Made by a program: the position numbers and the translations under genes
In this document: positions 8,573-64,000 of the stretch, in pieces
How positions within the stretch are numbered: the stretch's first letter is position 1
Layout: each line of letters opens with the position of its first letter
Source: Glaucostegus cemiculus
Taxonomy: Eukaryota
DNA length: 64,000 bases
NCBI GenBank assembly: GCA_976551045.1
Contig: CDPCPM010000014.1
Coordinates: 15,190,001 to 15,254,000 of the forward strand
Direction of reading: 5' to 3'
Notes under the pieces: model-generated
The model's input: only the letters and a program-made list of their open reading frames with translations
What the model was told of the DNA's origin: nothing
The model's database searches: none

Positions 8573-9574
8573 ATTTCCTGATGTGGCTCAATATCAAAAC
8601 CAGTTTGACTACGTACACGTCAATTACCTTGGAATATTTTGCTATGTTAAGTTCACAAGATAAATTCAAGTTGCAGTTGCTGTTCCACCAGCTTCAGTGC
8701 AAGAACACACTCAGCCATAAAGCTACAAAGTAGCACATGGGATACTGGCTAAGGATGGGCAATAGGTGAGAATTTAAGGTACGATAAGCCAACGCCTCAT
8801 TTTGCTACAATGCCCTGCTAGTCGCTATCATTTGCCTGAATGGACAAGGAATAGATAAGACCTCAGTGTCATATATCACACATAAGAAGGCATTTATAGA
8901 GAGCAAGCAGTGTGTGAAGGCCTCCTTTCAAGTCTTGTTGCCCTCTTTCTGGGTGAAGATATCATACAAAGACTTATAGCAATCAGGCTTGAAATGAGCT
9001 CCTCAAATCTCTCTGTATTCATGCACAATGTAGCTGAGATACCTCCCAGTCCATGACAAATTCTCTTCTACAACTCCAAGTATATCCTGTTTGTCAATGG
9101 TGCCTGAGTTACAGCGATAGCAAATCTAAGAGAATCATGCAGCCTCTGTTGCAGAGTCTCCACTGCCTTCTCTATCTCTTGTGATCTGTGATACACCAGG
9201 TCAACTTTCTGCATTTCTGGTTCCACTGAAGTGTGCGTATCTGAGCTAGTTCATGACCTGCATGAGTCCTGTGTCAAAGTGCCTTCAGAGGGAGTGGCTC
9301 CTTCAAGGACTTATCTTTGTCTGAAACTTGGACCACTGTGGGAGATAAAAGATTTGAATGGGTTTTGTCATGGTGAGAGTGTTTGAACTCATGCGTATGA
9401 TCATATTTCGCTGCCTGTTTACATCAACTCAACATGTGTAAGTGTTGTACAGCATGTGGCTGTCTGATATTTAATTCAATCAGCACGTAGCTGGGAGGCT
9501 CACATTTCCTCATTTCCTATAGCCAAGCACACCTAGTCCTCCCTAATTTTCAGTTGCTTATACTGGCTTATAGG

Positions 9575-11104
9575 CTGTTGTTCCTAAGTGCCTAAAATCT
9601 GCCACTATCATACCTGTTCCTAAGAAGTCACCTGCAATGTGTCTGAATGACTACCATCCCATAACTCTAACACCGATTGTCATGAAATGCCTTGAGAGGC
9701 TAGTTATGAAGCACATCAGATCCATCCTCCCCCCACCTTGGATCCTCATCAGTATGCATATCAGGCAAACAGGTCCACCGATGATGCAGTCTCCTTTGCC
9801 CTGCACTCTGCACTATATCACTTAGAAAAGAAGAATTCGTACGTCAGGCTGCTATTCATCGACTTCAGCTCCGTTTTCAATACCATCATCCCACAACAGC
9901 TAATCAGGAAGTTGGGCGCACTGGGCATTAACACTCCTCTCTGCAACTGGATACTGGACTTTCTCACTTGCAGGCCGCAGTCAGTCAGAATTGGTGAAAA
10001 CACCTCGAGCACCATCACACTAAGCACTGGCTCCCCACAGGGTTGTGTGCTCAGTCCGCTCCTGTTCACCTTGTTGACTCACAACTGTGAGGCCAGATCC
10101 AGCTCCAACCGCATTGTCAAATTCGCCGATGACACGACAGTGGTGGGTCTTGTCATGGATGACGATGAGTCGGACTACAGAGAGGAGGTGAAACAACTAG
10201 CTATGTGGTGCAGTGACAACAACCTCTCCTTGAATGTGGAAAAAACCAAGGAGATGATAGTGGATTCTAGGAGGGGTCACCGTGTGCACACCCCGCTGAC
10301 CATCAACGGGTCTGCTGTGGAACAAGTAAGCAGCACCAAGTTCCTGGGGGTCCACATCACCGATGACCTGACCTGGTCCACTAACATTACGGCCCTCACG
10401 AAGAAAGCTCAGAAACGCCTCTACTTCCTGCGGAGACTGAGGAAAGCGAACTCCCATCCCTCCATTATGAAAACTTTCTATAGAGGGACCATTGAGAGCA
10501 TCTTAACCCAATGTATCACTGTTTGGTTTGGAAGCTGCTCAGCTGCTGGGTGGAAGTCCCTCCAGAGGATAGTTAGGGCTGCGGAGAGGATCATAGGTGT
10601 CTCTCTTCCATCCATCGCAGACATATACAAGGACCGTTGTTTTAGGAAGACCAAAAATATAATGGCGGATCCTTCTCACCCCTCCCATCATTTCTTTAAA
10701 ATTTTGCCATCTGTAAGGAGGCTCAAATGTATCAGGGCGAGAACGACCAGGCTGAGCAATAGCTTCTTTCCGCAAACCATCAGAACTGCGAACTCTCTCA
10801 TTCCTCCATCTTCCTTGTTAACACTAAGGGATGCTAGGTGCACAGAAATGCACCAGCACTTTAAATGCCCGCCACCAGCTCGTTCACTTTAATAACTATT
10901 TATTTAATTACCTGCCGTATTTAATTTAACCTGCCGTATTTAATTTAATTTAAACTTCCGTAGTTTTTAATGTTTTTTTTTGTTCAGTGTGTCTGTGTGT
11001 CTCTGCTGTTTGTTATTTAATGGGCCAAGCACCTGAGGAGGATGGTATCTCACTCCTATGCATACTATGTATGTATATGGTTGTGACAATAAAACTGATT
11101 CTGG
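9575..11104 (+). mobile_element. 5'-truncated Rex1/Babar-clade LINE
   Basis: [68 protein letters not shown]; 3' end GTGACAATAAAACTGATTCTG. Confidence 0.92.
9637..10892 (+). pseudogene. Rex1/Babar reverse transcriptase, one frameshift at C-run ~9730, no endonuclease
   Basis: ORF 9637-9825 continues into ORF 9738-10892 (384 aa) with complete RT motifs. Confidence 0.88.
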
Positions 11105-22984: not shown

Positions 22985-24290
22985 GACATAGGACCAAAGG
23001 CACACCATGGCCCTTTATGCCAGCTCTGCTAATCTATCATGGACAATCTTCTGACTCAACTATACCTTGCCACATTATTCCCATTTTTTTATTCTCTTAG
23101 TATCAAAAAGATTTGCTATATATCTGCCTTGTATATTCTCAGAAAATGAGCATCAATAGCTCTCTGGGGAAAGAATTTCAAAGATCCATTGTCCTACAGT
23201 GATTAAATTTCTCCTCATGACAATACCAAATAACCAAGCCCTTAATCTGAGTCTGTAAACCCCAGTTCAAGACTCCCCAGCCAGGGAAAACCTTCTCACT
23301 GCAGTTAACTACTCAAGTCCCTTATGAGTTTTTATGTGCTTCAACATGACCATCTTTTATTCTTCAAAACTTTAGGAAATATGGGATTGTGTCTACTCAA
23401 TCTCCACTGCTGACAATAATCTTGTCCTAGAAATCTAGCACACCTTCATGGTACTCTCTCAAAGGGAAAACATCCTTCCTTTGCTAGGGAGACAAAAATT
23501 TTACAAAGTTCTCCAAACTTGATATCACCAAAGACAGTGTTTGCTGTAACACTCCTTTACTCGTAATCCAAATTCTTCTGTAACAAAACCTGACATTCAT
23601 TTGTTTTTCTAATTGCTTGGGGTGTCCACATGTTGTTACTTTCTGAGCTTAATGTACAAGGGTCTCAGGTCCCTCTAAAAACCAATATTCCTGGTCTCTC
23701 ATCGCTTATAAAATATATTCCTTTTCCATAGTAGGCAATCACTTCATATTTCTCCACATTATACTCCACCTCCCATATAATGGTTCAGCCCCTTAATGTG
23801 CCTAAATCCCTTTGATGCATTTTTACATTCTCCTCAGAGATTACTTTCTCACCTAGATCTGAGTCAACAGCAACCTTGGATGCATGGCACCCAGTCTCCT
23901 TGTCTAAGTCATTGTTGTAGATTTTAAAAAAAAGATGAGGTTCAAGCATTGATTCTTGCAGTACCCCACTGTTTACAACCTGCCAATCCAGAAGTGACTC
24001 TGCTATTCCTAGATTCAGTTTTGTGTTAGTCATTCCTCAATCCACCTTAATGTATTACCACTAAAGCCATAAATCCTAAGTTTGCAAAAGAACATTTTAT
24101 GTGATACCTTATTGAATATTTTTTTAAAGTCAAAATAGAGAACATCCACTGATTCACCCCATCTGTCCTGCTGTTTAAACCCTCAAACTAATCTAACAGA
24201 CATATTAAATTTGATTTCCCTTTTATAAATCTGTCTTCACCCTGCCCAATTGTATTATAATTCATGAAATGCCTGTGAACACATGGTCCT
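22985..24290 (-). mobile_element. Degenerate CR1 LINE fragment (RT to tail)
   Basis: ORF 23785-24033 WQVVNSGVLQESMLEPHLF..NDLD..SKVAVD = decayed SGVPQGSVLGP/KFADD. Confidence 0.7.
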
Positions 24291-32059: not shown

Positions 32060-32535
32060 ATAGAGTCATAGTGCCGTAGAGTCATACAGCACAGAAACAG
32101 GCCCTTCAGCCCAACTGGATCACCAACCAAGATCCCCATCTAAGCTCGTCCCATTTGCCTGTGCTTGGCTGACATCCCTATTCGTGGACCTATCCAAGTA
32201 CCTTTTAAATGTTGTTAATGTACCTGCCTCAGCCATGTCCTCTGGCAGCTCATTCGATATACTGGGTGAAAAAGTTGCCCCTCAGATTCCTATTAAATCT
32301 CTCCCCTCTCACCTTAAACCTAGGCCCTCTAGTTCTTGATTCGCCAACCCTGGGAAAAAGGCTGTGCACATTCAGCTTATTTATGCCTCTCATAATTTAT
32401 TACACCTCTATAAGATCACCCCTCATTCTCCTGTGCTCCAATGAAGTCCCAACCTGTTCAGCCTCTCTCCATAACTCAGTCCCCTGAGTCCCAGCAACAT
32501 CCTTTAGAATCTCCTCTGCTCTCTTTCAGCCTTAT
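32060..32535 (-). mobile_element. CR1 3' fragment
   Basis: Tail CAGCACAGAAACAGGCCCTTCAGCCC; RRF.RML.GL/RGDLIEV region. Confidence 0.8.
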
Positions 32536-32544
32536 GTTGTGAGG

Positions 32545-32905
32545 AATGTTTCAGTTATGAGGCGAGACTGGATAGGCTGGGTTTGTTTTCCTTGGAGCAG
32601 AGGAGGGTGAGGGGAGTCTTGATTGAGGTATCCAAAATTATGACAGGTATAGATAGGGTAGATGGGAGAAACTTTTCTCCGTAGCAGAAGTGTCTAAGAC
32701 CAGAGGGCGTTGGTGTAAGGTGAAGGGTAGGGGGTTTAGCAGGGGTCTGAAGAAGAATTTTTTCACCCAGAGGGCGGTTACAATTTGAAATGCACTGCCT
32801 GAGTAGGTGGTGGAAGCAGGTATTGTCACAACGTTTATCAAGTATGTGGACAAGCATTTGAATCACCAAGGCATAGTCGGCTAAGGACCAGGTGCTAGTA
32901 AATGA
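32545..32905 (+). mobile_element. CR1 3' fragment, head-to-head with previous copy
   Basis: SYEARLDRLGLFSLEQRR..FFTQR region. Confidence 0.8.
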
Positions 32906-33017
32906 GATTAATGAAGACAGGTCAAATAAAATAAAACTGCAGTTCTGGAAATATAAAACAAAAACAGAAAATGCTGGAAGCACTCAACAAGTCAGGTTGA
33001 TTCTGCGGGGAGAAAAA

Positions 33018-33056
33018 CAGTCAACGTTTCAGGTCTGCAACCCTTCATCAGAACTG
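33018..33056 (-). ncRNA. Minimal type I hammerhead ribozyme (Penelope-type)
   Basis: - strand CAGUU-CUGAUGA-A-GGGUU-GCA-GACCU-GAAAC-GUU-GACUG: intact core, stem I CAGUU/GACUG, stem II GGGUU/GACCU, palindromic stem III AACGUU. Confidence 0.7.
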
Positions 33057-33064
33057 ACAACCTA

Positions 33065-33420
33065 CCAAAGGCCTGGGCAGAGTAGACTTGGAGTGGATGT
33101 TTCCATCAGTAGGAGAGTCTCAGATCCGAGGGCACAGCCTCAGAATAAAGAGATGTCCCTTTAGAACTGAGAGGAGGAAGAATTTCTTCAGCCACAGGGT
33201 GGTGAATCTGTGGACTTCGTTGCCACAGAGGACTGTGGAAGCCAAGTCATTGGGTGTACTTAAGACAGAGATTGATAGGTTCTTCATTGGTTAGGGAGTT
33301 AAGGGGAGAAGGCAGGAGAATGGGGTTGGAAAAAAAATCAACTATGATTGAATGGTGGAGCAGACTCGATGGACTGAATGGCCTGATTCTGCTCCTATAT
33401 CTTATTGTCTTATGGTCTTC
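33065..33420 (+). mobile_element. CR1 3' fragment with tail hairpin
   Basis: ORF 33088-33294 MFPSVGES..NFFSHRVVNLW; tail GGAGCAGA..TCTGCTCC + (TCTTATGG)-like repeats. Confidence 0.85.
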
Positions 33421-35848: not shown

Positions 35849-36772
35849 TAGAAACATAGAAAACCTACAGCACAATTCAGGCCCTTCAGCCCACAAAGCT
35901 GTGCTGAACATGTCCCTACCTTAGAGAATCATAGACTTCTATTTTTCTCAGCTTCATGTACCTATCCAAAAGTCTCTTAAAAGACCCTAACGTATTCGCC
36001 TCCACCACCGTTGCCGGTAGCCCATTCTACGCACTCACCAATCTCTGAGTAAAAAACTTACCCCTGACATCTCCCCTATACCTACTTCCCAGCACTTTAA
36101 ATCTGTGTCCTCTTGTGGCCACCATTTCAGCCCTGGGAAAAAGTCTCTGACTATCTACCCGATCAATGCCTCTCATCATCTTATACACCTCTATCAGGTC
36201 CCCCCTCATTCTCCGTCACTCCAAGGAGAAAAGGCTGAGTTCCCGCAACCTGCTTTCATAAGGCATGCTCCTCAATCCAGGCAGCATCCTTGTAAATCTC
36301 CTCTGTACCCTTTCTATGGCTTCCACATCCTCCCTGTAGTGAGGTGACCAGAACTGAGCACAGTATTCCAAGTGGGGTCTGACCAGGGTCGTATATAGCT
36401 ACAGCATTACTTCTCGGCTCCTAAATTCAATTCCACGGTTGATGAAGGACAATACACCATATGCCTTCTTAACCACAGAGTCAACCTGTGCAACTTCTTT
36501 GAGTGTCCCATGGACTCGGACCCCAAGATCCCTCTGATCCTCCACACTGCCTAGAGTCCTACCATTAATACTATACTCTGCCATCATATTTGACTTACCA
36601 AAATGAACCACTTCACACTTATCTGGGTTGAACTCCCATCTGCTGCTTCTCAGCCCAGCTTTGCATCCTATCTATGTCCCGCTGTAACCTCTGACAGCCC
36701 TCCACACTATCAACATACCTCCAACCTTTGTGTCATCTGCAAACTTACTTACCCTTCCCTCCACTTCCTTAT
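35849..36772 (-). mobile_element. 5'-truncated CR1/HER1 LINE
   Basis: ORFs 36027-36209, 36399-36611, 36672-36881 (VSKFADDTKVGG, RGDLIEVYK); (TTTCTATG)-like tail. Confidence 0.9.
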
Positions 36773-39364: not shown

Positions 39365-39590
39365 CCATAGGTTTCGATGAGATCTCTCATCATCCTTCTA
39401 CACTCCATTGGGTACAGGCCCAAGACCATCAAACTCTCCTCATACATTAAGCCTTTCATTCCTGGCATCATTCTTGTGAACCTCCTCTGGACCGTCTCCA
39501 GGTCCAGCTCATCTTTCCTTAGATACAGGGCCCAAAGTTGCATACGATAATTCCACTGCCTGATAAAGCCTCAGCACTACATCCTTGGTA
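39365..39590 (-). mobile_element. CR1 internal fragment
   Basis: ORF 39250-39543 QLWALYLRKD..LETVQRRFTRMMPGMKGL. Confidence 0.8.
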
Positions 39591-46879: not shown

Positions 46880-47762
46880 CATAGAACACTACAGCACAGT
46901 ACAGGCCCTTTGGCCCACAATGTTGTGCCGACATTTTATCCTGCTCTAAGATCTATCTAACCCTTCCCTCCCATGTGACCCCCCATTTTTCTATCATTCA
47001 TGTGTCTATCTAAGAGTCTCTTAAATGTCCCTAATGTATCTGCCCCCACAACCACTGCTGGCAGTGCGTTCCACACACCCACCATTCTCTGTGTAAAAAA
47101 CTTACCTCTGACATCCCCCTTATACCTTCCTCCAATCACCTTAAAATTATGTCGCCTCATGTTAGCCATTGTCGACCTGGGAAAATGTCTCTGATTGTCC
47201 ACTCGATCTATGCCTCTTATCATCTTGTACACCTCTATCAAGTCACCTCTCATCCTCCTTCTCTCCAAAGAGAAAAGCCCCAGCTCGCTCAACCTATCCT
47301 CATAAGACATGCTCTCCAATCCAGGCAACATCCTGGTAAATCTCCTCCGCACCCTCTCTAAAGTTTCCACACCCTTTCTACAATGAGGCGACCAGAACTG
47401 AACCCAATACTCCAAGTGTGGTCTGACCAGAGTTCTATAGAGCTGCAACATCACCTCACGTCTCTTGAACTCGATATCCTGACTAATGAAGGCCAAAACT
47501 CCATACGCCTTCTTAACAACCTATTGACCTGTGTGACAACCTTAAGGGATCTATGGACGTGGACCCCAAGATTCCTCTGTTTCTCCACACTGCTAAAAGT
47601 CCTGCCATTAACCTTGTATTCTGCCTTCGAATTCGATCTCCCAAAGTGTATCACTTCACACTTATCTGAGTTGAACTCCATCTACCACTTCTCAGCCCAG
47701 CTCTGCATTCTATCAATATCCTGTTGTAATCTACACTACCCACAGCACCACCAACCTTTGTG
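46880..47762 (-). mobile_element. 5'-truncated CR1/HER1 LINE
   Basis: ORFs 46957-47496 (LVRPHLEY..RRFTRMLPGL..FFTQR) and 47451-47681 (MEFNSDKCEVIHFG). Confidence 0.92.
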
Positions 47763-51154: not shown

Positions 51155-51557
51155 GTATCATCCTGAATGCTCCTTCTCCCAGAGCTTCCTAAGAATCAGT
51201 GAGGATGTTTCATTTCTTCAAGAGAGCTTTGAAATATTCTTGAATCATTTCCTCTGACAATCTGATAGTTTCGTCTCATGATAGAGCTCAGAATAGATAG
51301 TCTGTTTTGGGAGTCTGGTGTCAAATATGTGAGCATGTGACATCTCCAACATAGTTGAAGAATATAACAAGGCTTCTGAACTGGGATGCTGCCTGGAAAA
51401 GGATGCTGAGATTGGTACTCTTGTCCTTCTAGTAGATTTGAAGGATTTTGTCAGCATTGTTGGTATTTTCCAGTGCCTTGAGATGCCTGCTGGAGGTAGT
51501 CCAGGCCTCAGGAGGCAGAGATCACTGCTGCCCAATAGACCATGAATTTTGTGCCAG
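51155..51557 (-). mobile_element. Degenerate RTE fragment
   Basis: ORF 51245-51535 DTRLPKQTIYSEL..QRK. Confidence 0.7.
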
Positions 51558-52320
51558 CTAAGTTTGCAGATGACACAAAGATTGGAGGTGTTGTGGACAG
51601 TATAGAAGGTTGTCGTAGGTTACAATGAGATATAGACAGGTTGGGCGGAGAAGTGGCAGATGGAGTTCAGTCTGGGAAACGTGTGCAGTGATACACTTTG
51701 GAAGATCGAAATTGCAGAGTACAAGGTTAATGGCAGGATTCTTAACGGCGTGGAGGAACAAAGGGATCTTGGAGTCCAAGTCCATAGATCCCTCAAAGTT
51801 GCTGCACAAGTTGATAGGATGATTCAGAAAGCGTATGGTGTGCTGGCCTTCATTAGTCAGGGGATTGAGTTCAAGAGCTATGAGGTAACGTTGCAGGTCC
51901 ATAAAACCCTGGTTTCTCTTTGGAGTGTAGGCGGATGAGAGGTGGCTTGTTAGAAGTGTATAAGATTATGAGAGGCATAAATGGAGTGGACAGCCAGCAC
52001 TTTTTTCCCAGGGCGGCAATGGACAATACCAGAAGACATCCATTTAAGGTGAGTGGAGGACAGTTCAGGGGAGATATCAGAAGAAGGTTTATTACACAGA
52101 GAGTGGTGGGTGCCTGGAACGCACTGCCAGGGGTGGTAGCAGAGGCTGATACAATAGCGATATTTAAGAGAATCTTAGTTAGGCACATGGATGTAAGAAG
52201 AATGGAGGGTTATGGGCTGTGTAGGAAGGAAGGGTTAAATTCATTGTGGAGTAGGTTTACATAGGTCAGCACAACATTGTGGGCTGAAGGGCCCATACTG
52301 TGCTGTACTATGTTCTATAT
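51557..52320 (+). mobile_element. 5'-truncated CR1/HER1 LINE with internal deletion
   Basis: Starts at KFADDTKIGG; ORFs 51660-51938 and 51920-52264; tail GGGCTGAAGGGCCCATACTGTGCTGTAC. Confidence 0.9.
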
Positions 52321-55086: not shown

Positions 55087-56594
55087 CTAGAGACACAATA
55101 TCCACAAGAAAAACAAATTCAACATAAATTGTACAAAACTATACAAGAAAGAACACAATTAAAACAAAATAAATGAAGTTCATTGTGGTACAAAGTGTAG
55201 AACACAAGCTCAAGCTCATAAATAGCAAATATTGGGATATTTTACTTCACCCTAAAATGATCATCCTAGATGGATGCCTGGAGGGGATTGAAGATGGAAA
55301 CCATGGGACAATGCAAGCAACAATTGATTGTGGTAGAAGAGGAGGTTGAGGGTTTTGAAAAGATGATGCTAGATGGATTTATTGGCCTTACCTATTGGTA
55401 ATTATCATGCAAAGTTTTGGAATCCATGAGCAGAGGATTGTGATGTTAACATTTCAGTGCTTATAGCAAAGCCCTAACGAAGAACACTAGATGTCAATTT
55501 GTCAATCTTATATTCCTGTTTAAGTTTTGAAGATCCTGATATTGGATTGTTGGGGAAATAAGCAATACAATTCTTTTCAGTTAAGTGTTTTATAAACAAA
55601 ACACACACGATGACAAAACATGAGATTACTTTGTATACACAATTACATGAGTGGATAAGTCTAGCACAATTCTGATAATACCAGTGTTGTTCATGTCTCT
55701 AATGTTTTTTCTTCTTTCATCTGTTGTACACCAGCTGTTACTGTAACACCATGCAATTGCAACCAATCAAGATGTCAACACTGCATTAAATTCTCTTTCT
55801 ATCAGGAACAAAGCAGTTCACAACAATATTATCAAATGCATAGTGAAGATTACCAACAAACAAATATTTCAAAATAGTAGACATAACATTTTGTATTGTC
55901 AGCATGCAAGTATCTCCAACTTGCTTCATCACCAAGATTTCAGTGAACTGTTTTCATTAATATTAAAGTGCACTGAAACATTACCAGAGGAAAGTAACAA
56001 GCACTTTGTGCCTAACTAGCCATTGAGGGAGTACAGTAATAAATGAGCAACATGAAGAGAATGAAACAATTTCATTTTATTCAATGAGATTATCAGAGAA
56101 AAATTAATTTAATTTGATCCTTAGTTTCTTTAAGGTTGAGATACTTAATTGTTTAACTTTTCCAATAGAACTTTTCCAATTACTCTGACCTCGGAGGACT
56201 TCAGAAACTGCTAAGTATTTTCTCTATTTTTTTTTAATTAAAGTGTAAGAGTAGAGTAAGATTTTTAACAAGGGTGTAAGATACTAGTGTTAGATAGTAT
56301 TTAGAAGTTATTTTTAGTAGGGTTATATAAGCTTTAAGGGGTCGAGTGAGGGCTGCACTGCGCAGGCGCCACGCAGGCAGCTTAAAAGGCAACCAGCTTC
56401 TAGAGCGGGCAGCGTCAGAGCGGCAGCAGAGTGAGGGGGGAGCAGAGTGTTCGGGCTTTGGCTCAAGGGGCTTCGGCTTGAAGGGGCCAGGCAGGGGAGT
56501 TACTGGTAAGTAAAGGTAAGGCTTACCTGTTGAAGTTACATAGTTGGACAAAACAGGTCTAAGGGGAACTAGTTAAGATGGAGGGCATGGTGCA

Positions 56595-57527
56595 GTGCTG
56601 TGGGAGGACGTGGACCCTGTTGAGGTCCACGTTGACCACTTCTGCGGTAAGCGTGTGAGGCTGGAGGAACTTCGGCTCAAAATTGATGAGCTGGAGTCAC
56701 GGCTTCAAACACTGCAGAGCATCAGGGAGAGAGAGAGTTATGTAGATGCAGCACATCAGGAGACAGTCACCCCACTTAGAGCAGATACTTCAGGGGGCCA
56801 GGTAGTAGATAGCTGGGTGACTGTCAGGGGAGGGAAAAGGAAGGGGAAAACAAATAGCCAGACAGTGCAGAGAACCCCGGAGGCTGTTCCCCTCAATAAC
56901 AGGTTTTCAACTTTGGAAACTGTGGAGGGGGATAGCCTGCAGGAACCAAGCACTAGTACCCAGGTCACTGCCACTAGGACCAGTACTACTGCTCAGATGG
57001 GGAAGAAGGGGACGAGAAATGCAGTGGTGATAGGGGACTCAAAAGTCAGGGAAACAGATAGGAGATTCTGTGGAAGTGAACATGAATCCCGGATGGTATG
57101 TTGCCTCCCAGGTGCCAGGGTCCGGGATATTACTGATCGGGTTCACAGGATTCTCGAGTGGGAGGGAGAGCAGCCAGAAGTCATGGTTCATGTTGGTACC
57201 AATGACATAGGTAGAAAGAGGGATGAGGTCCTGAAAAGGGAGTTTATGGAGCTAGGCAGAAAGCTGAAGACCAGGACCTCAAGGGTAGTAATTTCAGGAT
57301 TACTACCAGTGCCACGTGATAGGAAAGGTAGGAACAGGGCGAGGTGGCAATTAAATACGTGGCTGAGAAAGTGGTGCAGGGTAGAAGGTTTTAGATTTTT
57401 GGATAACTGGGACCTCTTCTGGGGAAGGTGGGACCTGTACAGAAAAGACGGGTTACACCCCAACCAGAGGGGGGCAGATATCCTTGCAGCACAGTATGCT
57501 TGGATGGTTCATGAGAGTTTAAACTAG
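56595..57527 (+). CDS. CR1 ORF1: zinc-finger remnant, coiled coil, SGNH/GDSL esterase-like domain
   Basis: VVIGDS, CLPGA, HVGTND, DGLHPN motifs; LEELRLKIDELESRL heptads; likely true ATG at 56578 is now out of frame. Confidence 0.88.
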   Translation: MLWEDVDPVEVHVDHFCGKRVRLEELRLKIDELESRLQTLQSIRERESYVDAAHQETVTPLRADTSGGQVVDSWVTVRGGKRKGKTNSQTVQRTPEAVPLNNRFSTLETVEGDSLQEPSTSTQVTATRTSTTAQMGKKGTRNAVVIGDSKVRETDRRFCGSEHESRMVCCLPGARVRDITDRVHRILEWEGEQPEVMVHVGTNDIGRKRDEVLKREFMELGRKLKTRTSRVVISGLLPVPRDRKGRNRARWQLNTWLRKWCRVEGFRFLDNWDLFWGRWDLYRKDGLHPNQRGADILAAQYAWMVHESLN

Positions 57528-57666
57528 TTGGCGAGGGGGATGGGAACCAGGAGGGTGTAGAGCCACTCTGTCTGTTAGAGAGACAGACAGAGTGTGTCTC
57601 TCTACATCCTCTAAAAGAGGATGTAGAGGTTACAGAAAAGGCAGATCTAACAGACAGAGTGGCTCT
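57518..57666 (+). promoter_or_regulatory. Candidate -1 programmed ribosomal frameshift cassette (U_UUA_AAC plus downstream structures)
   Basis: T TTA AAC TAG in ORF1 frame; -1 frame open 57515-60664; multiple perfect inverted repeats 57551-57666. Confidence 0.6.
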
Positions 57667-60664
57667 TAGGAAGGAGAGGCAGAGTAGAGGCCATAATAGT
57701 AAAAAGGTGGTTAAACTAATCAGGCAAGATGAAGGAAACCATCTTAGATTAAAGGAGGTGGTATGCGGGAACAAGTCGACGTGTAGTGAAGATGGTAAGA
57801 AGGACAGGCGGGTGGAAGGTAAGGATAATTTAGAGATCAATAGAAGTTCTATAGTTGATGCTGTTCTAAAAGTACTGTATTTTAATGCACATAGCATTAG
57901 GAATAAGGTCGATGACCTAGTGGCACAGCTACAAGCTAAAAAATATGATATCGTGGCAATCACCGAATCATGGCTTACTGACGGATGTGATTGGGGACTG
58001 AACATCCAAGGGTATACGGTGTATAGGAAGGATAGGAGGGTAGGCAGAGGGGGTGGTGTAGCCCTGATGGTCAGTAATAATATAAAATCGATAGAAAGGA
58101 AGGACATAGGGGTGGAAGAAGTGGAATCCTTATGGGTGGAGCTAAGAAATAGCAAGGGTAAAAGAACGCTAATTGCAGTTATATATAGACCCCCTAACAG
58201 CAGCCGAGAGGAGGACTATAGGATACAGTTAGAAGTAGAAAAGGCGTGTCAAAAGGGCAATGTGAAGATAATTATGGGGAACTTCAACCTGAAGGTCGAT
58301 TGGGAAAATCAGCGAAGAGGTGGATCGCAGGAAACTGAGTTTGTAGAATGTCTACAGGATGGCTTCTTGGAGCAACTTGTAGATGAACCCACCAGGGGAA
58401 GGGCCATTTTGGATTGGGTACTGTGCAATGAACCAGAGCTGATTAGGGAGCTAAAAGTAATGGAACCATTAGGAACCAGTGATCACAATATGATTGAGTT
58501 TGGAGTCAAATTTGAAAAGGAGAGGCTCATAACTGGTGCACATATATGGCAATGGAACAAGGGAAACTTCAGCAGTATGAGAGAGGTACTGTCTCAAATC
58601 GATTGGAAGAGTAAGCTTGCAGGTGGGACGGTGGAGCAGAAATGGATAAAGTTTTTACAAGAAATAAGGAAGGTGCAGGATAGGTATGTTCCAAGAAAAA
58701 AGAAAGTTCTAAATGGAAAAAAGGCACATATGTGGGTAACGAGAGAGGTTAAGGCTAAGATAAGAGCAAAGGGGAGGGCCTACAAGGTAGCAAAAATAAG
58801 TGGGGAAACTGAGGATTGGGAAACATTTAAAAACCTGCAGAAAGAAGCTAAGAAGGTCATTAGGAAAGAAAAGATGAATTACGAAAGGAAATTGGCAGAT
58901 AACATTCAAACAGATACTAAAAGTTTTTTTAAATATATGAGGTGTAAAAGAGAGACAAGGGTTGATATAGGACCAATTGAAAATGGTGGGGGAGATATTA
59001 TAATAGAAGATACAGAGATGGCAGAGGAACTAAATAAGTATTTTGCATCAGTCTTCACTGTGGAAGATACCAGCAATATACCAGATAGACAGGGGTTCCA
59101 GGGGATTGAACTGAGTACAGTTGAGATTACTAGGGAGAAGGTGCTAAGGAAGCTAAGTGGATTAAAGACAGATAAGTCACCCGGACCGGATGAGGTGCAC
59201 CCTCGGTTTCTGAAGGAGGTGGCTTTAGAGATTGTAGAGGCATTAGTGATTATTTTCCAAGAGTCAATGGACTCCAGCATGGTTCCGGAGGACAGGAGAG
59301 TAGCGAACGTAGTTCCACTGTATGAGAAAGGTGGGAGGCAGCATAAAAGTAATTACAGACCAATTAGTTTGACATCAGTAGTGGGAAAGATACTGGAATC
59401 GATCCTCAAGGATGAGGTTACGGAATACCCGGTGTTTCAAGACAGGATAGGTCCAAGCCAGCATGGTTTCATAAAGGGAAGATCTTGCCTGACCAACCTA
59501 TTGGAGTTTTTTGAGGAAATCACAGGTAGGGTGGATAAGGGAGAGGCAGTGGACGTTGTGTATTTAGACTTTCAAAAGGCCTTCGACAAGGTGCCGCATC
59601 AGAGGCTGATTATTAAGATGAGTACGCATGGAATCACAGGAAAGATATTAAAATGGGTCGAGCATTGGCTGGTAGGCAGAAAGCAACGGGTAGGAATAAA
59701 GGGATCCTGTTCTGGATGGCGACAAGTTACTAGTGGTGTCCCGCAAGGGTCGGTGTTGGGCCCGCTACTTTTCACTTTATATATTAACGATTTGGATGAT
59801 GGAATAAATGGTTTTGTAGCTAAGTTTGCGGATGACACCAAGATTGGCGGTGGAGCAGGGAATATAGAAGAGGCAGGAAGGCTGCAGAGAGACTTGGATA
59901 GGTTAAGTGAATGGGCAAAGAAATGGCAGATGAAATTCAATGTTGACAAATGTGCTGTAGTACACTTTGGCAAAAGAAATGAATGGGCAGATTATTATCT
60001 AGATGGGGAGAAAATTGGAAGTACGGAAGTACAAAGGGACTTGGGGGTATTCATGCAGGACACCCTAAAAGTCAACCACCAGGTCGGATCGGTGATAAAG
60101 AAAGCGAATGCTATGTTGGCGTTCATTTCGCGAGGTATAGTGTATAGAAGTAGGGAAGTGATGATGAGGCTCTATGGAGCACTGATACGTCCTCATTTGG
60201 AATACTGTGTGCAGTTTTGGGCCCCACACCTTAGAAGGGATGTGCTGATGTTGGAGAGGCTCCAGAGGAGGTTTACAAGGATGATTCCTGGTATGAAAGG
60301 GCTTACCTATGATGAGCGTTTATTGGCTCTTGGACTGTACTCGTTGGAGTACAGAAGAATGAGTGGGGACCTCATAGAAGTATTTAGAATGTTGAAGGGA
60401 ATGGATAGAGTGGATGTGGAAAGGCTGTTTCCCTTGGTGGGTGAGTCCAAGACTAGAGGGCACAGACTTAGAATCAGAGGGAACCAGTTTAAAACAGAGA
60501 TGAGGAGAAATTACTTTAGTCAGAGGGTGGTGGAGTTGTGGAATTCTCTGCCACATACAGCTGTAGAGGCTCAGTCAGTGGGGGCATTTAAAGGGGAGTT
60601 AGATAGGTACCTAATTAATCAAGGTATCAAGGGATATGGGGATAAGGCTGGAAATTGGGGATAG
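57659..60664 (+). CDS. CR1 ORF2: APE endonuclease + reverse transcriptase (frame open from 57515; track start is GTG)
   Basis: YFNAHSI, DIVAITESWL, IMGNFN, SDHN, NYRPISLT, YLDFQKAFDKV, GVPQGSVLGP, KFADD; 1001 aa with no stop. Confidence 0.95.
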   Translation: MALRKERQSRGHNSKKVVKLIRQDEGNHLRLKEVVCGNKSTCSEDGKKDRRVEGKDNLEINRSSIVDAVLKVLYFNAHSIRNKVDDLVAQLQAKKYDIVAITESWLTDGCDWGLNIQGYTVYRKDRRVGRGGGVALMVSNNIKSIERKDIGVEEVESLWVELRNSKGKRTLIAVIYRPPNSSREEDYRIQLEVEKACQKGNVKIIMGNFNLKVDWENQRRGGSQETEFVECLQDGFLEQLVDEPTRGRAILDWVLCNEPELIRELKVMEPLGTSDHNMIEFGVKFEKERLITGAHIWQWNKGNFSSMREVLSQIDWKSKLAGGTVEQKWIKFLQEIRKVQDRYVPRKKKVLNGKKAHMWVTREVKAKIRAKGRAYKVAKISGETEDWETFKNLQKEAKKVIRKEKMNYERKLADNIQTDTKSFFKYMRCKRETRVDIGPIENGGGDIIIEDTEMAEELNKYFASVFTVEDTSNIPDRQGFQGIELSTVEITREKVLRKLSGLKTDKSPGPDEVHPRFLKEVALEIVEALVIIFQESMDSSMVPEDRRVANVVPLYEKGGRQHKSNYRPISLTSVVGKILESILKDEVTEYPVFQDRIGPSQHGFIKGRSCLTNLLEFFEEITGRVDKGEAVDVVYLDFQKAFDKVPHQRLIIKMSTHGITGKILKWVEHWLVGRKQRVGIKGSCSGWRQVTSGVPQGSVLGPLLFTLYINDLDDGINGFVAKFADDTKIGGGAGNIEEAGRLQRDLDRLSEWAKKWQMKFNVDKCAVVHFGKRNEWADYYLDGEKIGSTEVQRDLGVFMQDTLKVNHQVGSVIKKANAMLAFISRGIVYRSREVMMRLYGALIRPHLEYCVQFWAPHLRRDVLMLERLQRRFTRMIPGMKGLTYDERLLALGLYSLEYRRMSGDLIEVFRMLKGMDRVDVERLFPLVGESKTRGHRLRIRGNQFKTEMRRNYFSQRVVELWNSLPHTAVEAQSVGAFKGELDRYLINQGIKGYGDKAGNWG

Positions 60665-60819
60665 ATATGTTATCTTTTCTTTTCTCATGGAGCAGACTCG
60701 AAGGGCTGAATGGCCTACTTCTGCTCCCTTGTCTTGTGATCTTGTGATCTTGTGAAAAAAATTGTTATATAACATGCTCAAGTTACACATTCCACACTCC
60801 ACATTGTTGCCTAAAAATG

Positions 60820-61904: not shown

Positions 61905-63930
61905 CAAGGATCACAGAAGAATAAACACAAGAAAATATGAGCAGTAGTAGGCCACCTGGCTCTTCCAGCTTAATCTGCCATTCAGTAAATTCATGGCTGA
62001 TCTGTTCCAGGACTCAATGCTTCTTCTGTGCTAATCCCACAAACCCTCTGTTTCCCTATCTTTCAAGGATTTATCTACTTCCTCTTTAGGTACCTTCAGT
62101 GAACCATCATCACAGCCCTCCAGGGAAGAGAATTCCAAAGATTCATCACCAGACAGAAGAAATTTCTATGCACCTCAGTGTTAAGTGACAACCCTGTTAT
62201 CTTGTAAATATATCCCCTTGTTCAAGACCCTCACTAGTGGAAACATCTCAACATCTACCTTGTCATGCCCCCTTGTATGTTGCACTAAGATCACCCCTCA
62301 TCTTGCCAAAATCCAAAGGGTACAGGTCTAGAGGTTTATTGCTGTTCTTGATAGGAAACCCTCTCATCACTGCAATTAGCCTAATGAATCTCTTCCAAAC
62401 TGCCTTCAATGCTACTATATCCTTTCTTAAATAAGTGGTCCAAAGCAATATTCCAGCCGTGGCCTCACCAAAAGCCCTGTACAACACTTCTTATTTTTAA
62501 ACTCCACCCCCTAAACAATAAAGGCAACGAGGATCAAATCAGGAGCGAGATGGAATACTCTCTACTTGCAACTTTAACAACACTTAAGAAGCTCAACACC
62601 ACACAGGACATAACAGCCCACATGATAGGCATCCCATCCACAGCTGTTTGCTCCCTCCACCACCACAGTAAGAGAGTTTGTACCATCTACAGGATGCACT
62701 GCAGAAACTCACCAAGACTCCTTAGAAGCATCTTCCAAACCCACAGCCTCCACCAGCTAGAAGGATTATGGCCAGAAAAACATGGGAACACCACCATCTG
62801 GAAGTTGCCCTCCAAGCCACATGCCATCCTAACTAGGAAATATATCACTGTTCCTTCACTGCTGCTGGGTCAAAATCCTGGAACTCCCTCCCAAACAGCA
62901 TTATAGGAGTATACCCACTGCTTAAGGTCAGCAGCTGTTCAAGAAGGCAGCTCCCCACCTCCTCCTCATGGGTAATTAGTTATGGGCAATGAAATGCTGG
63001 CTCAGCCCGTTGAATGAATAAAAAAAGCTATGGCATTTGCCTTCTTAATTACTTGTTTCACTTGCATGCTAACTTATTGAGTTTCAGGCACAAGAACACC
63101 TAATATCCTCTGTACTCCACTTATTTGATGTTTCTCTCCATTTAGATAGTAGTCTGCCTTTTGATTCCTCTTACTAAATTGCATGACCTCACACTGTAAA
63201 CTCCACTTGTAAGTTTTTGCCCATTCACTCAACCTGTCTATGTCCTGTTATACAGGCCATATATCCTCCTCACAGAATGCCCTTCCACCTACTTTTGAAT
63301 CATCAGCAAACTTCCATACTCCACACTCTGCCTTCCTCCTCCAAGTCAATAATATAGATAGCAATTAATTGGGAGCCAAGGATTAATCTTTGGGACACTC
63401 ATTAAGTACATACTTGAAGTCTGAAAAAGATATAGTTATTCCGATTCTTTGTTTTCTATATGATAACCAGTATTCAATCCATGTTAACACACTCCCCCCT
63501 TGCTGTGAGCTCTTATATTGTGCATCAGTCTTTTATATGGGACTTTATTGAATGTCCTCCTGAAGTTTTTTGAGAACTCCAGCAAATTTGCCAAGCATGA
63601 TTTTCCTTCTATGAAGCCTTATTGACTTGATTTAATTGCATTAAGCTTCTCTGATGACTAGCTCTTTCTTCCTTGATTGTAGATGCCACCATCTTCCCAA
63701 TGAGAGATGTTAAGCAAATTGGCCTATACTTTCCTGCATTTTGCCTCCCCCTTGTTTTGGGCATCACATTTGTAGTTTTCTATCCATTGGTACACTCTCA
63801 AAACTTAATGAGCTTTAATAAACTTCAACCAATGGCTCCACTATCTCTGCAGTCACTTCTTTTAAACATTTGGATGCAGGTCATTTCATCCTTGTGACTT
63901 GTCTGCCTTTAGTCCATTCATTTTTCCACT
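61905..63930 (-). mobile_element. Degenerate CR1 (RT to tail) interrupted by another LINE fragment
   Basis: ORF 62263-62487 YLRKDIVAL..RF; CATCAGCAAACTT (KFADD complement) at ~63300. Confidence 0.7.
62530..63028 (+). mobile_element. CR1/L2-group LINE 3' fragment nested in CR1
   Basis: QIRSEMEYSLLA..LKKLNTTQD; tail TTCAAGAAGGCAGCTC..ATGGGCAAT..TGAATGAATAAAAAAA. Confidence 0.75.
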
Positions 63931-63933
63931 GCT

Positions 63934-64000
63934 GGGCTGCATGATAGCGTAAGCAGTTAGCGCGACACTGTTACAACGCCAGCGATCGGGGTTCGATTCC
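63934..64000 (+). mobile_element. V-SINE tRNA head, cut by window end
   Basis: GATAGCG..GTTAGCGCGACACTGTTACAACGCCAGCGATCGGGGTTCGATTCC. Confidence 0.85.

What the first reader, a model, noticed from the sequence alone, without database searches (positions are those of the whole stretch)
57512..57666. Candidate -1 programmed ribosomal frameshift fusing ORF1 and ORF2 of a CR1 LINE
Seen: ORF1 ends AGT TTA AAC TAG, so T_TTA_AAC (57518-57524) is in the exact X_XXY_YYZ phase and is directly followed by the stop. The -1 frame is closed by TGA at 57512-57514, then open without a stop from 57515 through the whole EN-RT ORF to 60664 (KLVGEGDGNQEGVEPL..TDRVALRK..). The ORFs overlap by only ~13 nt, which contain the heptamer. 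ORF2 has no in-frame ATG before the endonuclease domain; its first Met lies inside it (VALMV). Established: UUUAAAC is the coronavirus slippery sequence, -1 frameshifting makes gag-pol fusions in retroviruses, and L1 uses reinitiation for ORF2. Inference: this CR1 makes an esterase-EN-RT fusion of about 1350 aa by frameshifting. I do not know this as an experimentally established mechanism for vertebrate CR1.
Basis: partly seen in the sequence, partly recalled or inferred. Interest (0 to 1): 0.85.

Follow-up and report, generated by a model that had tools for sequence, protein, structure and literature searches.

The report
Ancient frameshift signal in CR1 LINEs
A common family of vertebrate jumping genes (CR1 LINEs) ends its first gene with the same seven-letter slippery sequence and stop codon in rays, bird-like and worm-like lineages, and the second gene continues one base back, so ribosomes likely slip there to make one fused protein, as retroviruses do.

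Summary
Observation confirmed. ORF1 (SGNH esterase) ends T_TTA_AAC-TAG at 57518-57527. ORF2 (EN-RT) is in the -1 frame, opens 3 nt before the heptamer, and has no AUG until inside the endonuclease. The signal is family-wide. Six CR1 lineages of this genome carry it, as do 21 of 27 foreign loci covering the junction. 110 of 126 homologous ORF1 proteins (sharks to birds) end Leu-Asn-stop, and so do annelid-like ones with longer tails. Ten deep lineages all use TTA and AAC, while other conserved leucines use 4-5 codons. The endonuclease is in -1 phase, stop-free, in 19 of 22 cases, across linkers of 32-98 codons. New here: no conserved 3' hairpin, but a G5 run about 10 nt downstream (20 of 20), and an ORF2-less derivative subfamily that lost the phase. 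The strong hairpin in this copy is a private insertion, and this copy's ORF1 is broken. Best reading: -1 ribosomal frameshifting gives a ~1,348-aa fusion (0.8). This is inferred; no translation data. Reinitiation is the main rival. Ten searches found no paper on CR1 frameshifting; three older key papers were unreadable. The scan noted this before on two other genomes.

The parts
56180..56577 (+). 5' UTR of the CR1 element (5' end approximate)
   Evidence: shared with sibling copies from about 56180
56578..57527 (+). ORF1: zinc-finger-like N terminus (label recalled), SGNH esterase; broken in this copy by a 13-nt deletion after 56598
   Evidence: Pfam PF13472; PDB 4c1b E 7e-42; deletion
57512..57514 (+). 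TGA closing the -1 frame, so entry into ORF2 by a frameshift must fall within 57515-57527
57518..57524 (+). slippery heptamer T_TTA_AAC (X_XXY_YYZ)
57525..57527 (+). ORF1 stop TAG directly after the heptamer (TAA or TAG in 19 of 20 lineages)
57535..57539 (+). conserved G5 run after a 10-nt spacer; candidate linear stimulator
   Evidence: run of 5 or more G starting 7-10 nt after the heptamer in 20 of 20 lineage sequences
57556..57615 (+). copy-private inverted duplication (net +54 nt, in frame); forms a strong hairpin, not a family feature
57525..57865 (+). AUG-less, stop-free linker in the -1 frame between heptamer and endonuclease
57866..60664 (+). ORF2 endonuclease and reverse transcriptase; first in-frame ATG at 58067, inside the endonuclease
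60689..60755 (+). 3' tail: GGAGCAGA...TCTGCTCC inverted repeat and three TCTTGTGA octamers
   Evidence: read from the sequence

Best explanation
This is the ORF1/ORF2 junction of an esterase-type CR1 LINE, where a conserved U_UUA_AAC-stop signal likely makes a share of ribosomes slip back one base and produce a predicted esterase-linker-endonuclease-reverse transcriptase fusion of about 1,348 residues. Shown: the heptamer, its phase, the adjacent UAA/UAG, the open -1 linker, the lack of a conserved AUG and the G5 run, all kept across lineages. Inferred: most ribosomes terminate and release ORF1p (320 aa); a minority re-pair from UUA/AAC onto UUU/AAA and read on. The pause would come from the stop codon and/or the G5 run at the mRNA entry channel (a bound protein or a G-rich fold), not from a classical pseudoknot. 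This would fix the ORF1p:ORF2p ratio, like Gag:Gag-Pol.
For: (1) Codon freeze: 10 deep lineages (ORF1 C-terminal identity about 22-68%) all use TTA and AAC, and 9 of 10 have T before them, though the preceding residue varies (S, G, A, H, C). Two other conserved Leu columns use 4 and 5 codons; background TTA 0.16, AAC 0.42. (2) Per copy, anchored on protein only: 29/29, 25/30, 13/20, 5/8 and 11/15 in five searches of this genome, and 21 of 27 covered metagenome loci. (3) 110 of 126 homologous ORF1 proteins with a covered C terminus end Leu-Asn-stop; 3 more read on as FKL, the -1 translation of the heptamer. (4) Leu-Asn follows the stop, not the fold: about 25 residues from the GLHL motif in vertebrate proteins, 30 and 38 in the annelid-like set (75 of 95 with the motif end so); the crystallised ZfL2-1 esterase chain ends before those columns. 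(5) Endonuclease in -1 phase with no stop in 19 of 22 cases, linkers 32-98 codons; frames 0 and +1 hold stops in 18 and 20 of 20. (6) No ATG in the open -1 stretch upstream in 20 of 20; none before the endonuclease in 7 of 20. (7) ORF2-less derivative: heptamer in ORF1 phase in 5 of 30 copies against 25 of 28 ORF2-type copies; first T changed to G in 14 of 30 against 0 of 28. (8) U_UUA_AAC is among the most shift-prone sites on mammalian ribosomes (PMC5009743, passages).
Against: No direct evidence of translation. No conserved 3' stem-loop or pseudoknot, which canonical -1 signals have (z-scores -2.35 to +1.5), and no common long-range partner for G5. 13 of 20 lineages have an in-frame ATG in the linker or at the endonuclease start; four bird-like loci have it 2 nt after the stop, and L099 has a TAATG overlap like SART1. 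One other synonymous column (Asp, GAT 8/8) is also invariant. Three single copies of the annelid-like lineage (L066, L087, L108) have the endonuclease out of phase. Lineages are related, so counts are not independent. The derivative also loses ORF1 constraint and has an unstable G run, so point 7 is only suggestive. In the predicted fold Leu-Asn ends the last helix.
Confidence: 0.8

Rival explanations
1. Termination-reinitiation: ribosomes stop at ORF1 and restart ORF2 near the stop, at an AUG where there is one and otherwise at a non-AUG codon as in L1. The conserved heptamer, stop and G5 run would be the coupling signal.
For: This is the route described for SART1 and proposed for L1 (PMC3708506, PMC10275272, PMC5009743, PMC1965478; passages). 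ATG sits at -1 codon 5 in four bird-like loci and as TAATG in L099; TTG or GTG sits there in six other lineage sequences. It would also keep the linker open.
Against: Codon 5 is also GGC, AGT, TGG, TCG, GCA or GCG, so no start is conserved; the window's family has no near-cognate codon before codon 30. Reinitiation does not need a fixed -1 phase or an exact X_XXY_YYZ. TURBS elements lie upstream of the stop, whereas G5 lies downstream.
Confidence: 0.12
2. The frame change happens in the RNA: polymerase slippage adds a base at the site, or splicing from the 5' UTR donor-like motifs joins an AUG exon to ORF2.
For: GGTAAGT and GGTAAGG motifs at 56505-56521; TTTAAACTAG ends in a YAG; some host gene models splice into these ORF1s (names).
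Against: F2, F3 and F4 have TAA, so no AG there; no polypyrimidine tract; runs are only T3 and A3; neither route explains the codon phase.
Confidence: 0.04
3. Leu-Asn-stop is kept for the esterase protein, and the codons, phase and G run are inherited by descent without a recoding role.
For: Leu-Asn ends the last helix of the model; one other synonymous column is invariant.
Against: Leu-Asn moves 5 and 13 residues away from the fold yet stays at the stop; neighbouring Leu codons are scrambled; ORF2 would still lack a start.
Confidence: 0.03

Closest known systems
Canonical eukaryotic -1 programmed frameshift sites (coronavirus IBV U_UUA_AAC; retroviral and LTR-retrotransposon gag-pol)
   Same: Identical heptamer in X_XXY_YYZ phase; it joins an abundant upstream protein to the polymerase; the G_UUA_AAC variant in L065 matches the GUU deviation tolerated in equine arteritis virus (PMC3542737 passages).
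   Different: A non-LTR element; the stop follows the heptamer at once; no stem-loop or pseudoknot 5-9 nt downstream.
Dictyostelium TRE5-A and TRE3-A (APE-type non-LTR retrotransposons)
   Same: A review legend states both need a -1 frameshift for ORF2 (PMC5911963 passages). So -1 frameshifting in a LINE has been stated before.
   Different: Another element group, host kingdom and ORF1 type; their shift site was not seen or compared here, nor the experimental basis.
PRRSV nsp2 frameshift signal (CCCANCUCC bound by nsp1beta and PCBP)
   Same: No downstream structure; a short linear motif after a 10-nt spacer, active only at 9-11 nt (PMC4937337 passages). G5 has the same spacing.
   Different: G-rich rather than C-rich; different heptamer; no trans-activator known or tested here.
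L1 and SART1 ORF2 translation by reinitiation
   Same: Bicistronic LINE RNA with the same need to make little ORF2p.
   Different: They give a free ORF2p; L1 has a spacer and SART1 a UAAUG overlap; neither is described with a slippery heptamer in the passages read.
Esterase-type CR1 LINEs and zebrafish ZfL2-1 ORF1p (PDB 4c1b)
   Same: SGNH esterase ORF1 with EN-RT ORF2 (PMC13343379, PMC3905857 passages).
   Different: Neither paper has the word frameshift in its main text; the 4c1b chain ends before the Leu-Asn columns.

Membership tests
Esterase-type CR1 LINE | ORF1 with SGNH esterase | tested here: met
   PF13472 E 5e-14; 4c1b E 7e-42
Esterase-type CR1 LINE | ORF2 with APE endonuclease and reverse transcriptase | tested here: met
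   PF03372, PF00078
Esterase-type CR1 LINE | 3' hairpin and octamer microsatellite tail, no poly(A) (feature recalled) | tested here: met
   60689-60755
Esterase-type CR1 LINE | RT groups with CR1 rather than L2 in a tree | not tested
   no RT tree was built; assignment rests on architecture, tail and ORF1 homologs
Canonical -1 programmed frameshift signal | X_XXY_YYZ heptamer in zero-frame phase inside the ORF overlap | tested here: met
Canonical -1 programmed frameshift signal | Downstream ORF in the -1 frame, open from the site, without its own conserved start | tested here: met
   19 of 22 in phase; ATG not conserved
Canonical -1 programmed frameshift signal | Conserved synonymous sites at the shift site | tested here: met
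Canonical -1 programmed frameshift signal | Stem-loop or pseudoknot 5-9 nt downstream | tested here: not met
   no shared fold in 20 sequences (nested folding only); region is 58-79% purine; the window's hairpin is private
Canonical -1 programmed frameshift signal | Measured trans-frame product | not testable with these tools
   needs a reporter, ribosome profiling or mass spectrometry
Protein-stimulated frameshift (PRRSV nsp2 type) | Linear motif at a fixed spacing of about 10 nt | tested here: met
   G run starts after 10 nt in 17, 9 nt in 2 and 7 nt in 1 of 20
Protein-stimulated frameshift (PRRSV nsp2 type) | Bound trans-activating protein required | not testable with these tools
   none
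Stop-start reinitiation (SART1, TURBS type) | Conserved AUG overlapping or within about 20 nt of the stop | tested here: not met
   present in 5 of 20 lineage sequences, absent in the window's family

The most novel reading that the evidence does not exclude
Esterase-type CR1 LINEs from sharks to birds and annelid worms have kept, for over 450 million years, a structure-free -1 frameshift signal (U_UUA_AAC, UAR, 7 nt, G5). The G run is a protein-binding or quadruplex stimulator, the G-rich mirror of the PRRSV C-rich motif, and the active retrotransposition enzyme is an esterase-EN-RT fusion, a Gag-Pol analogue in a LINE.
Probability: 0.35. Interest if true: 0.92.

Novelty: new variant of a known kind. 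Interest (0 to 1): 0.78.

Why it matters
How LINEs translate ORF2 is described as unclear even for L1 (PMC3708506, PMC5009743 passages), and CR1-group elements are the dominant retrotransposons of most vertebrates (PMC13343379 abstract). A 25-nt signal kept across these lineages makes the question testable with one reporter. If right, the replicative protein of CR1 is a fusion that carries the esterase; annotations that start ORF2 at the first Met are wrong; engineered CR1 elements would need the junction; and a natural -1 signal without a pseudoknot would be a new class of stimulator.

Tried and rejected
The strong hairpin at 57559-57666 as stimulator: rejected, it comes from a private insertion; the two weak Rfam miRNA hits lie on it and are far below threshold. 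Local folding of 90 nt in 20 lineage sequences: no shared structure. Long-range partner for G5: no common site downstream; a C-rich patch about 640 nt upstream scored well in five elements but is a Val-Pro-Leu coding patch whose codons vary. G-quadruplex: scores 0.63-2.0, predicted in 4 of 20 folds, inconclusive. Absence of K/Q/E/M/W before Leu-Asn (2 of 110): not discriminating, because positions -6 and -7 show the same. In-frame fused copies (L281, 1296 aa, and others): scattered G-run length changes, not a subfamily. RNA runs: no RNA holder listed. Viral contigs: no ORF1 relative; a pattern scan gave hits, and the 80 loci listed had no CR1 similarity. Plasmids: no match. A frog-type query found nothing in this genome at E 1e-10. 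The prokaryote genome collection was not searched. Three papers were not held (PMID 9402732, PMC7528939, PMC1190309).

Full report
What is there. The window holds a near full-length CR1-type LINE at about 56180-60755 (+), in a 2.85-Gb genome whose closest named ORF1 relative is from a sawfish (78% identity), so likely a cartilaginous fish. ORF1 encodes an SGNH esterase and ORF2 an endonuclease and reverse transcriptase. ORF1 ends AGT TTA AAC TAG. The -1 frame opens at 57515 and runs 1049 codons. Its first ATG is codon 185, after the endonuclease motifs YFNA (122) and AITES (148). A start there would remove the conserved N-terminal Asn; mutating a conserved endonuclease Asn (N17A) cut Zorro3 retrotransposition to under 5% (PMC1965478, passages; that it is the equivalent residue is my inference). 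A frameshift entry must lie in the 13 nt 57515-57527.

This copy is damaged. Against eight sibling copies it has a 13-nt deletion after 56598 that puts the ORF1 ATG out of frame, an Asn in the endonuclease GDFN motif, and a net 54-nt inverted duplication at about 57556-57615. That insertion folds very stably (z -8.3) but occurs once in the genome, against 434 exact matches to the plain junction. The finding is about the family, not this copy. A sibling with an intact ORF1 has 320 codons, which with 1028 codons of -1 frame predicts about 1,348 aa.

Conservation per copy. All 29 sibling loci carry TTTAAACTAG, and so do 26 of 30 loci picked by downstream sequence only (four overlap the first set). 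Other families were pulled with foreign ORF1 queries and anchored on protein without its last four residues. TTTAAAC was at the predicted stop region in 25 of 30 (F2), 13 of 20 (F3), 5 of 8 (F4) and 11 of 15 (F5) copies. In animal DNA within metagenomes it was there in 21 of 27 loci that cover the junction; 30 of 57 loci did not cover it. The six misses include G_TTA_AAC (L065), T_TTA_AAT (L070), two decayed sites and two mis-anchored loci.

Conservation across animals. Of 143 proteins from two searches (the second listed 120 of 228 hits), 17 lack the C terminus. Of the other 126, 110 end Leu-Asn-stop, 3 read on as FKL, 7 end nearby with other residues and 6 read on otherwise. Named sources include rays, sharks, coelacanth, teleosts, frogs, turtles, lizards, a snake and a penguin. 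The most distant DNA lineage (L061, L063) has named relatives at 72-76% in the annelid Ridgeia (120 of 1271 hits listed). Of 95 of those with the GLHL motif, 75 end Leu-Asn, 2 read on as FKL and 18 end otherwise. Their tails are 5 or 13 residues longer, so Leu-Asn tracks the stop and not the fold. The crystallised ZfL2-1 esterase chain ends before these columns, although in my model of the window protein Leu-Asn closes the last helix. Whether the annelid link is descent or horizontal transfer was not tested.

The constraint is on the RNA. I compared six family majority sequences from this genome and 14 single metagenome loci. The 14 were chosen among loci with a heptamer, so their heptamer count is not a test; eight more with a heptamer were left out as short or decayed. 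In ten deep lineages Leu is always TTA and Asn always AAC, with T before them in nine, while other conserved Leu columns use four and five codons (background TTA 0.16, AAC 0.42). One Asp column is also invariant (8 of 8). The stop is TAA or TAG in 19 of 20. The endonuclease lies in the -1 frame with no stop in 19 of 20 sequences tested; adding the left-out L087 and L108, which are out of phase, gives 19 of 22. All three exceptions are single copies of a lineage whose other members are in phase. Linkers run from 32 to 98 codons; a shuffled linker stays open with probability 0.001-0.31 each, and the other two frames hold stops in 18 and 20 of 20. No ATG lies in the open -1 stretch upstream (20 of 20). 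Seven of 20 have no ATG before the endonuclease, one has it only at the endonuclease start, and twelve have one at unaligned places. Against my reading: four bird-like loci have ATG 2 nt after the stop and L099 has TAATG.

The stimulator. The 90 nt after the site are 58-79% purine and share no fold, so the canonical structure 5-9 nt downstream (PMC3542737, passages) is absent. What is shared is a run of five or six G starting after 10 nt in 17 of 20, 9 nt in two and 7 nt in one, with a free spacer. The flanking residues vary (E, Q, R, L, K, S before; D, E, V, G after), so the run is not explained by protein alone. Among the eight left-out loci, two have G5 at 10 nt, two G4, one an interrupted run, one a displaced run and two are too short. 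No common long-range partner was found and quadruplex scores were mixed. The spacing equals that of the protein-bound C-rich motif of PRRSV (10 nt, active at 9-11; PMC4937337, passages). G-quadruplexes stimulate frameshifting in synthetic constructs, with no natural case known in 2016 (PMC5009743, passages). A role for G5 is inferred.

A natural control. Family F2 has a derivative that jumps from just after G5 to the 3' end of ORF2 (75 exact matches; 576 for the ORF2-type junction). In the first 30 loci of each, picked by downstream sequence, the heptamer is in ORF1 phase in 5 of 30 derivative copies against 25 of 28 informative ORF2-type copies (two were truncated inside the site; two pairs look like duplicates). 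Its first T is G in 14 of 30 against 0 of 28. Copies are not independent, the upstream G run is unstable, and the derivative need not keep ORF1 either, so this is suggestive only.

Mechanism. Most likely -1 tandem slippage at U_UUA_AAC, with the adjacent stop and the G5 run providing the pause, gives a little ORF1-ORF2 fusion beside abundant ORF1p (0.8). Reinitiation (0.12) explains the open linker and the bird-like AUGs, but not the fixed phase or the frozen heptamer; both routes could coexist in bird lineages. RNA-level slippage or splicing (0.04) and protein-only conservation (0.03) fit poorly.

Relation to what is known. It works like retroviral gag-pol and coronavirus frameshifting by heptamer and layout, but fails the downstream-structure feature of the canonical signal. 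A -1 frameshift is stated for Dictyostelium TRE5-A and TRE3-A (PMC5911963, passages), so the idea is not new for LINEs as a class. For CR1, ten full-text searches listed no paper proposing it; CR1 + esterase + ORF1 + frameshifting gave zero papers. The 2016 frameshifting review names only HeT-A, TART and L1 among non-LTR elements in the passages shown (first 300,000 characters held). Word searches found no 'frameshift' in PMC13343379, PMC3905857 or PMC4120745. I read passages only (also of PMC4255032, PMC5006619, PMC10275272, PMC3708506), and no supplements. The library lacks most subscription papers. The turtle CR1 paper (PMID 9402732, identity recalled), Kapitonov and Jurka 2003 and Kojima 2005 were not held, and they or Repbase Reports may already note the overlap. 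The scan recorded the same signal on two other genomes; these are unchecked AI notes and not independent support.

Verdict. Real, deeply conserved, and most likely a programmed -1 frameshift: a new variant of a known kind, with an unusual candidate stimulator. Interest 0.78.

Noticed in passing
G000; L060, L293, L294, L296, L299, L300, L301-L330: A non-autonomous CR1 derivative (at least 75 copies) keeps the ORF1 end and about 260 nt of the 3' tail but lacks nearly all of ORF2; its breakpoint lies just after the G5 run.
   Followed up: partly
L281 (G000:C302), L047, L283-L292: Family F2 has an unstable G run right before the heptamer; length changes fuse ORF1 and ORF2 in frame in single copies (L281: 1296-aa open frame). 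Some may be assembly errors in homopolymers.
   Followed up: partly
window 56505-56521: Two splice-donor-like motifs (GGTAAGT, GGTAAGG) in the CR1 5' UTR; several database proteins are host gene models that include this ORF1.
   Followed up: no
window 57556-57615: Private inverted duplication of nearby downstream sequence, likely a template switch during insertion or repair; it keeps the frame.
   Followed up: yes
window 56886-56915; L031-L035, L064-L092, L147-L160: A short motif of the form P-x-x-N-[RK]-[FY]-x-x-L sits about 620 nt before the heptamer in ray-type and bird-like ORF1s, in an otherwise variable linker.
   Followed up: partly
L061, L063, L066, L070, L087, L108; P0150, P0155, P0176: An annelid-related CR1 ORF1 lineage shares the esterase and junction with vertebrate CR1; descent or horizontal transfer is untested.
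   Followed up: partly
P0074, P0057: CR1 ORF1 proteins deposited under Pseudomonas aeruginosa and a frog parasite, probably host DNA contamination.
   Followed up: no
window 9574-10526, 23689-24158, 32256-33306, 35931-36764, 39367-39549, 46999-47732, 51542-52216, 62111-63990: Further RT-like fragments of truncated, decayed LINE copies on both strands.
   Followed up: no
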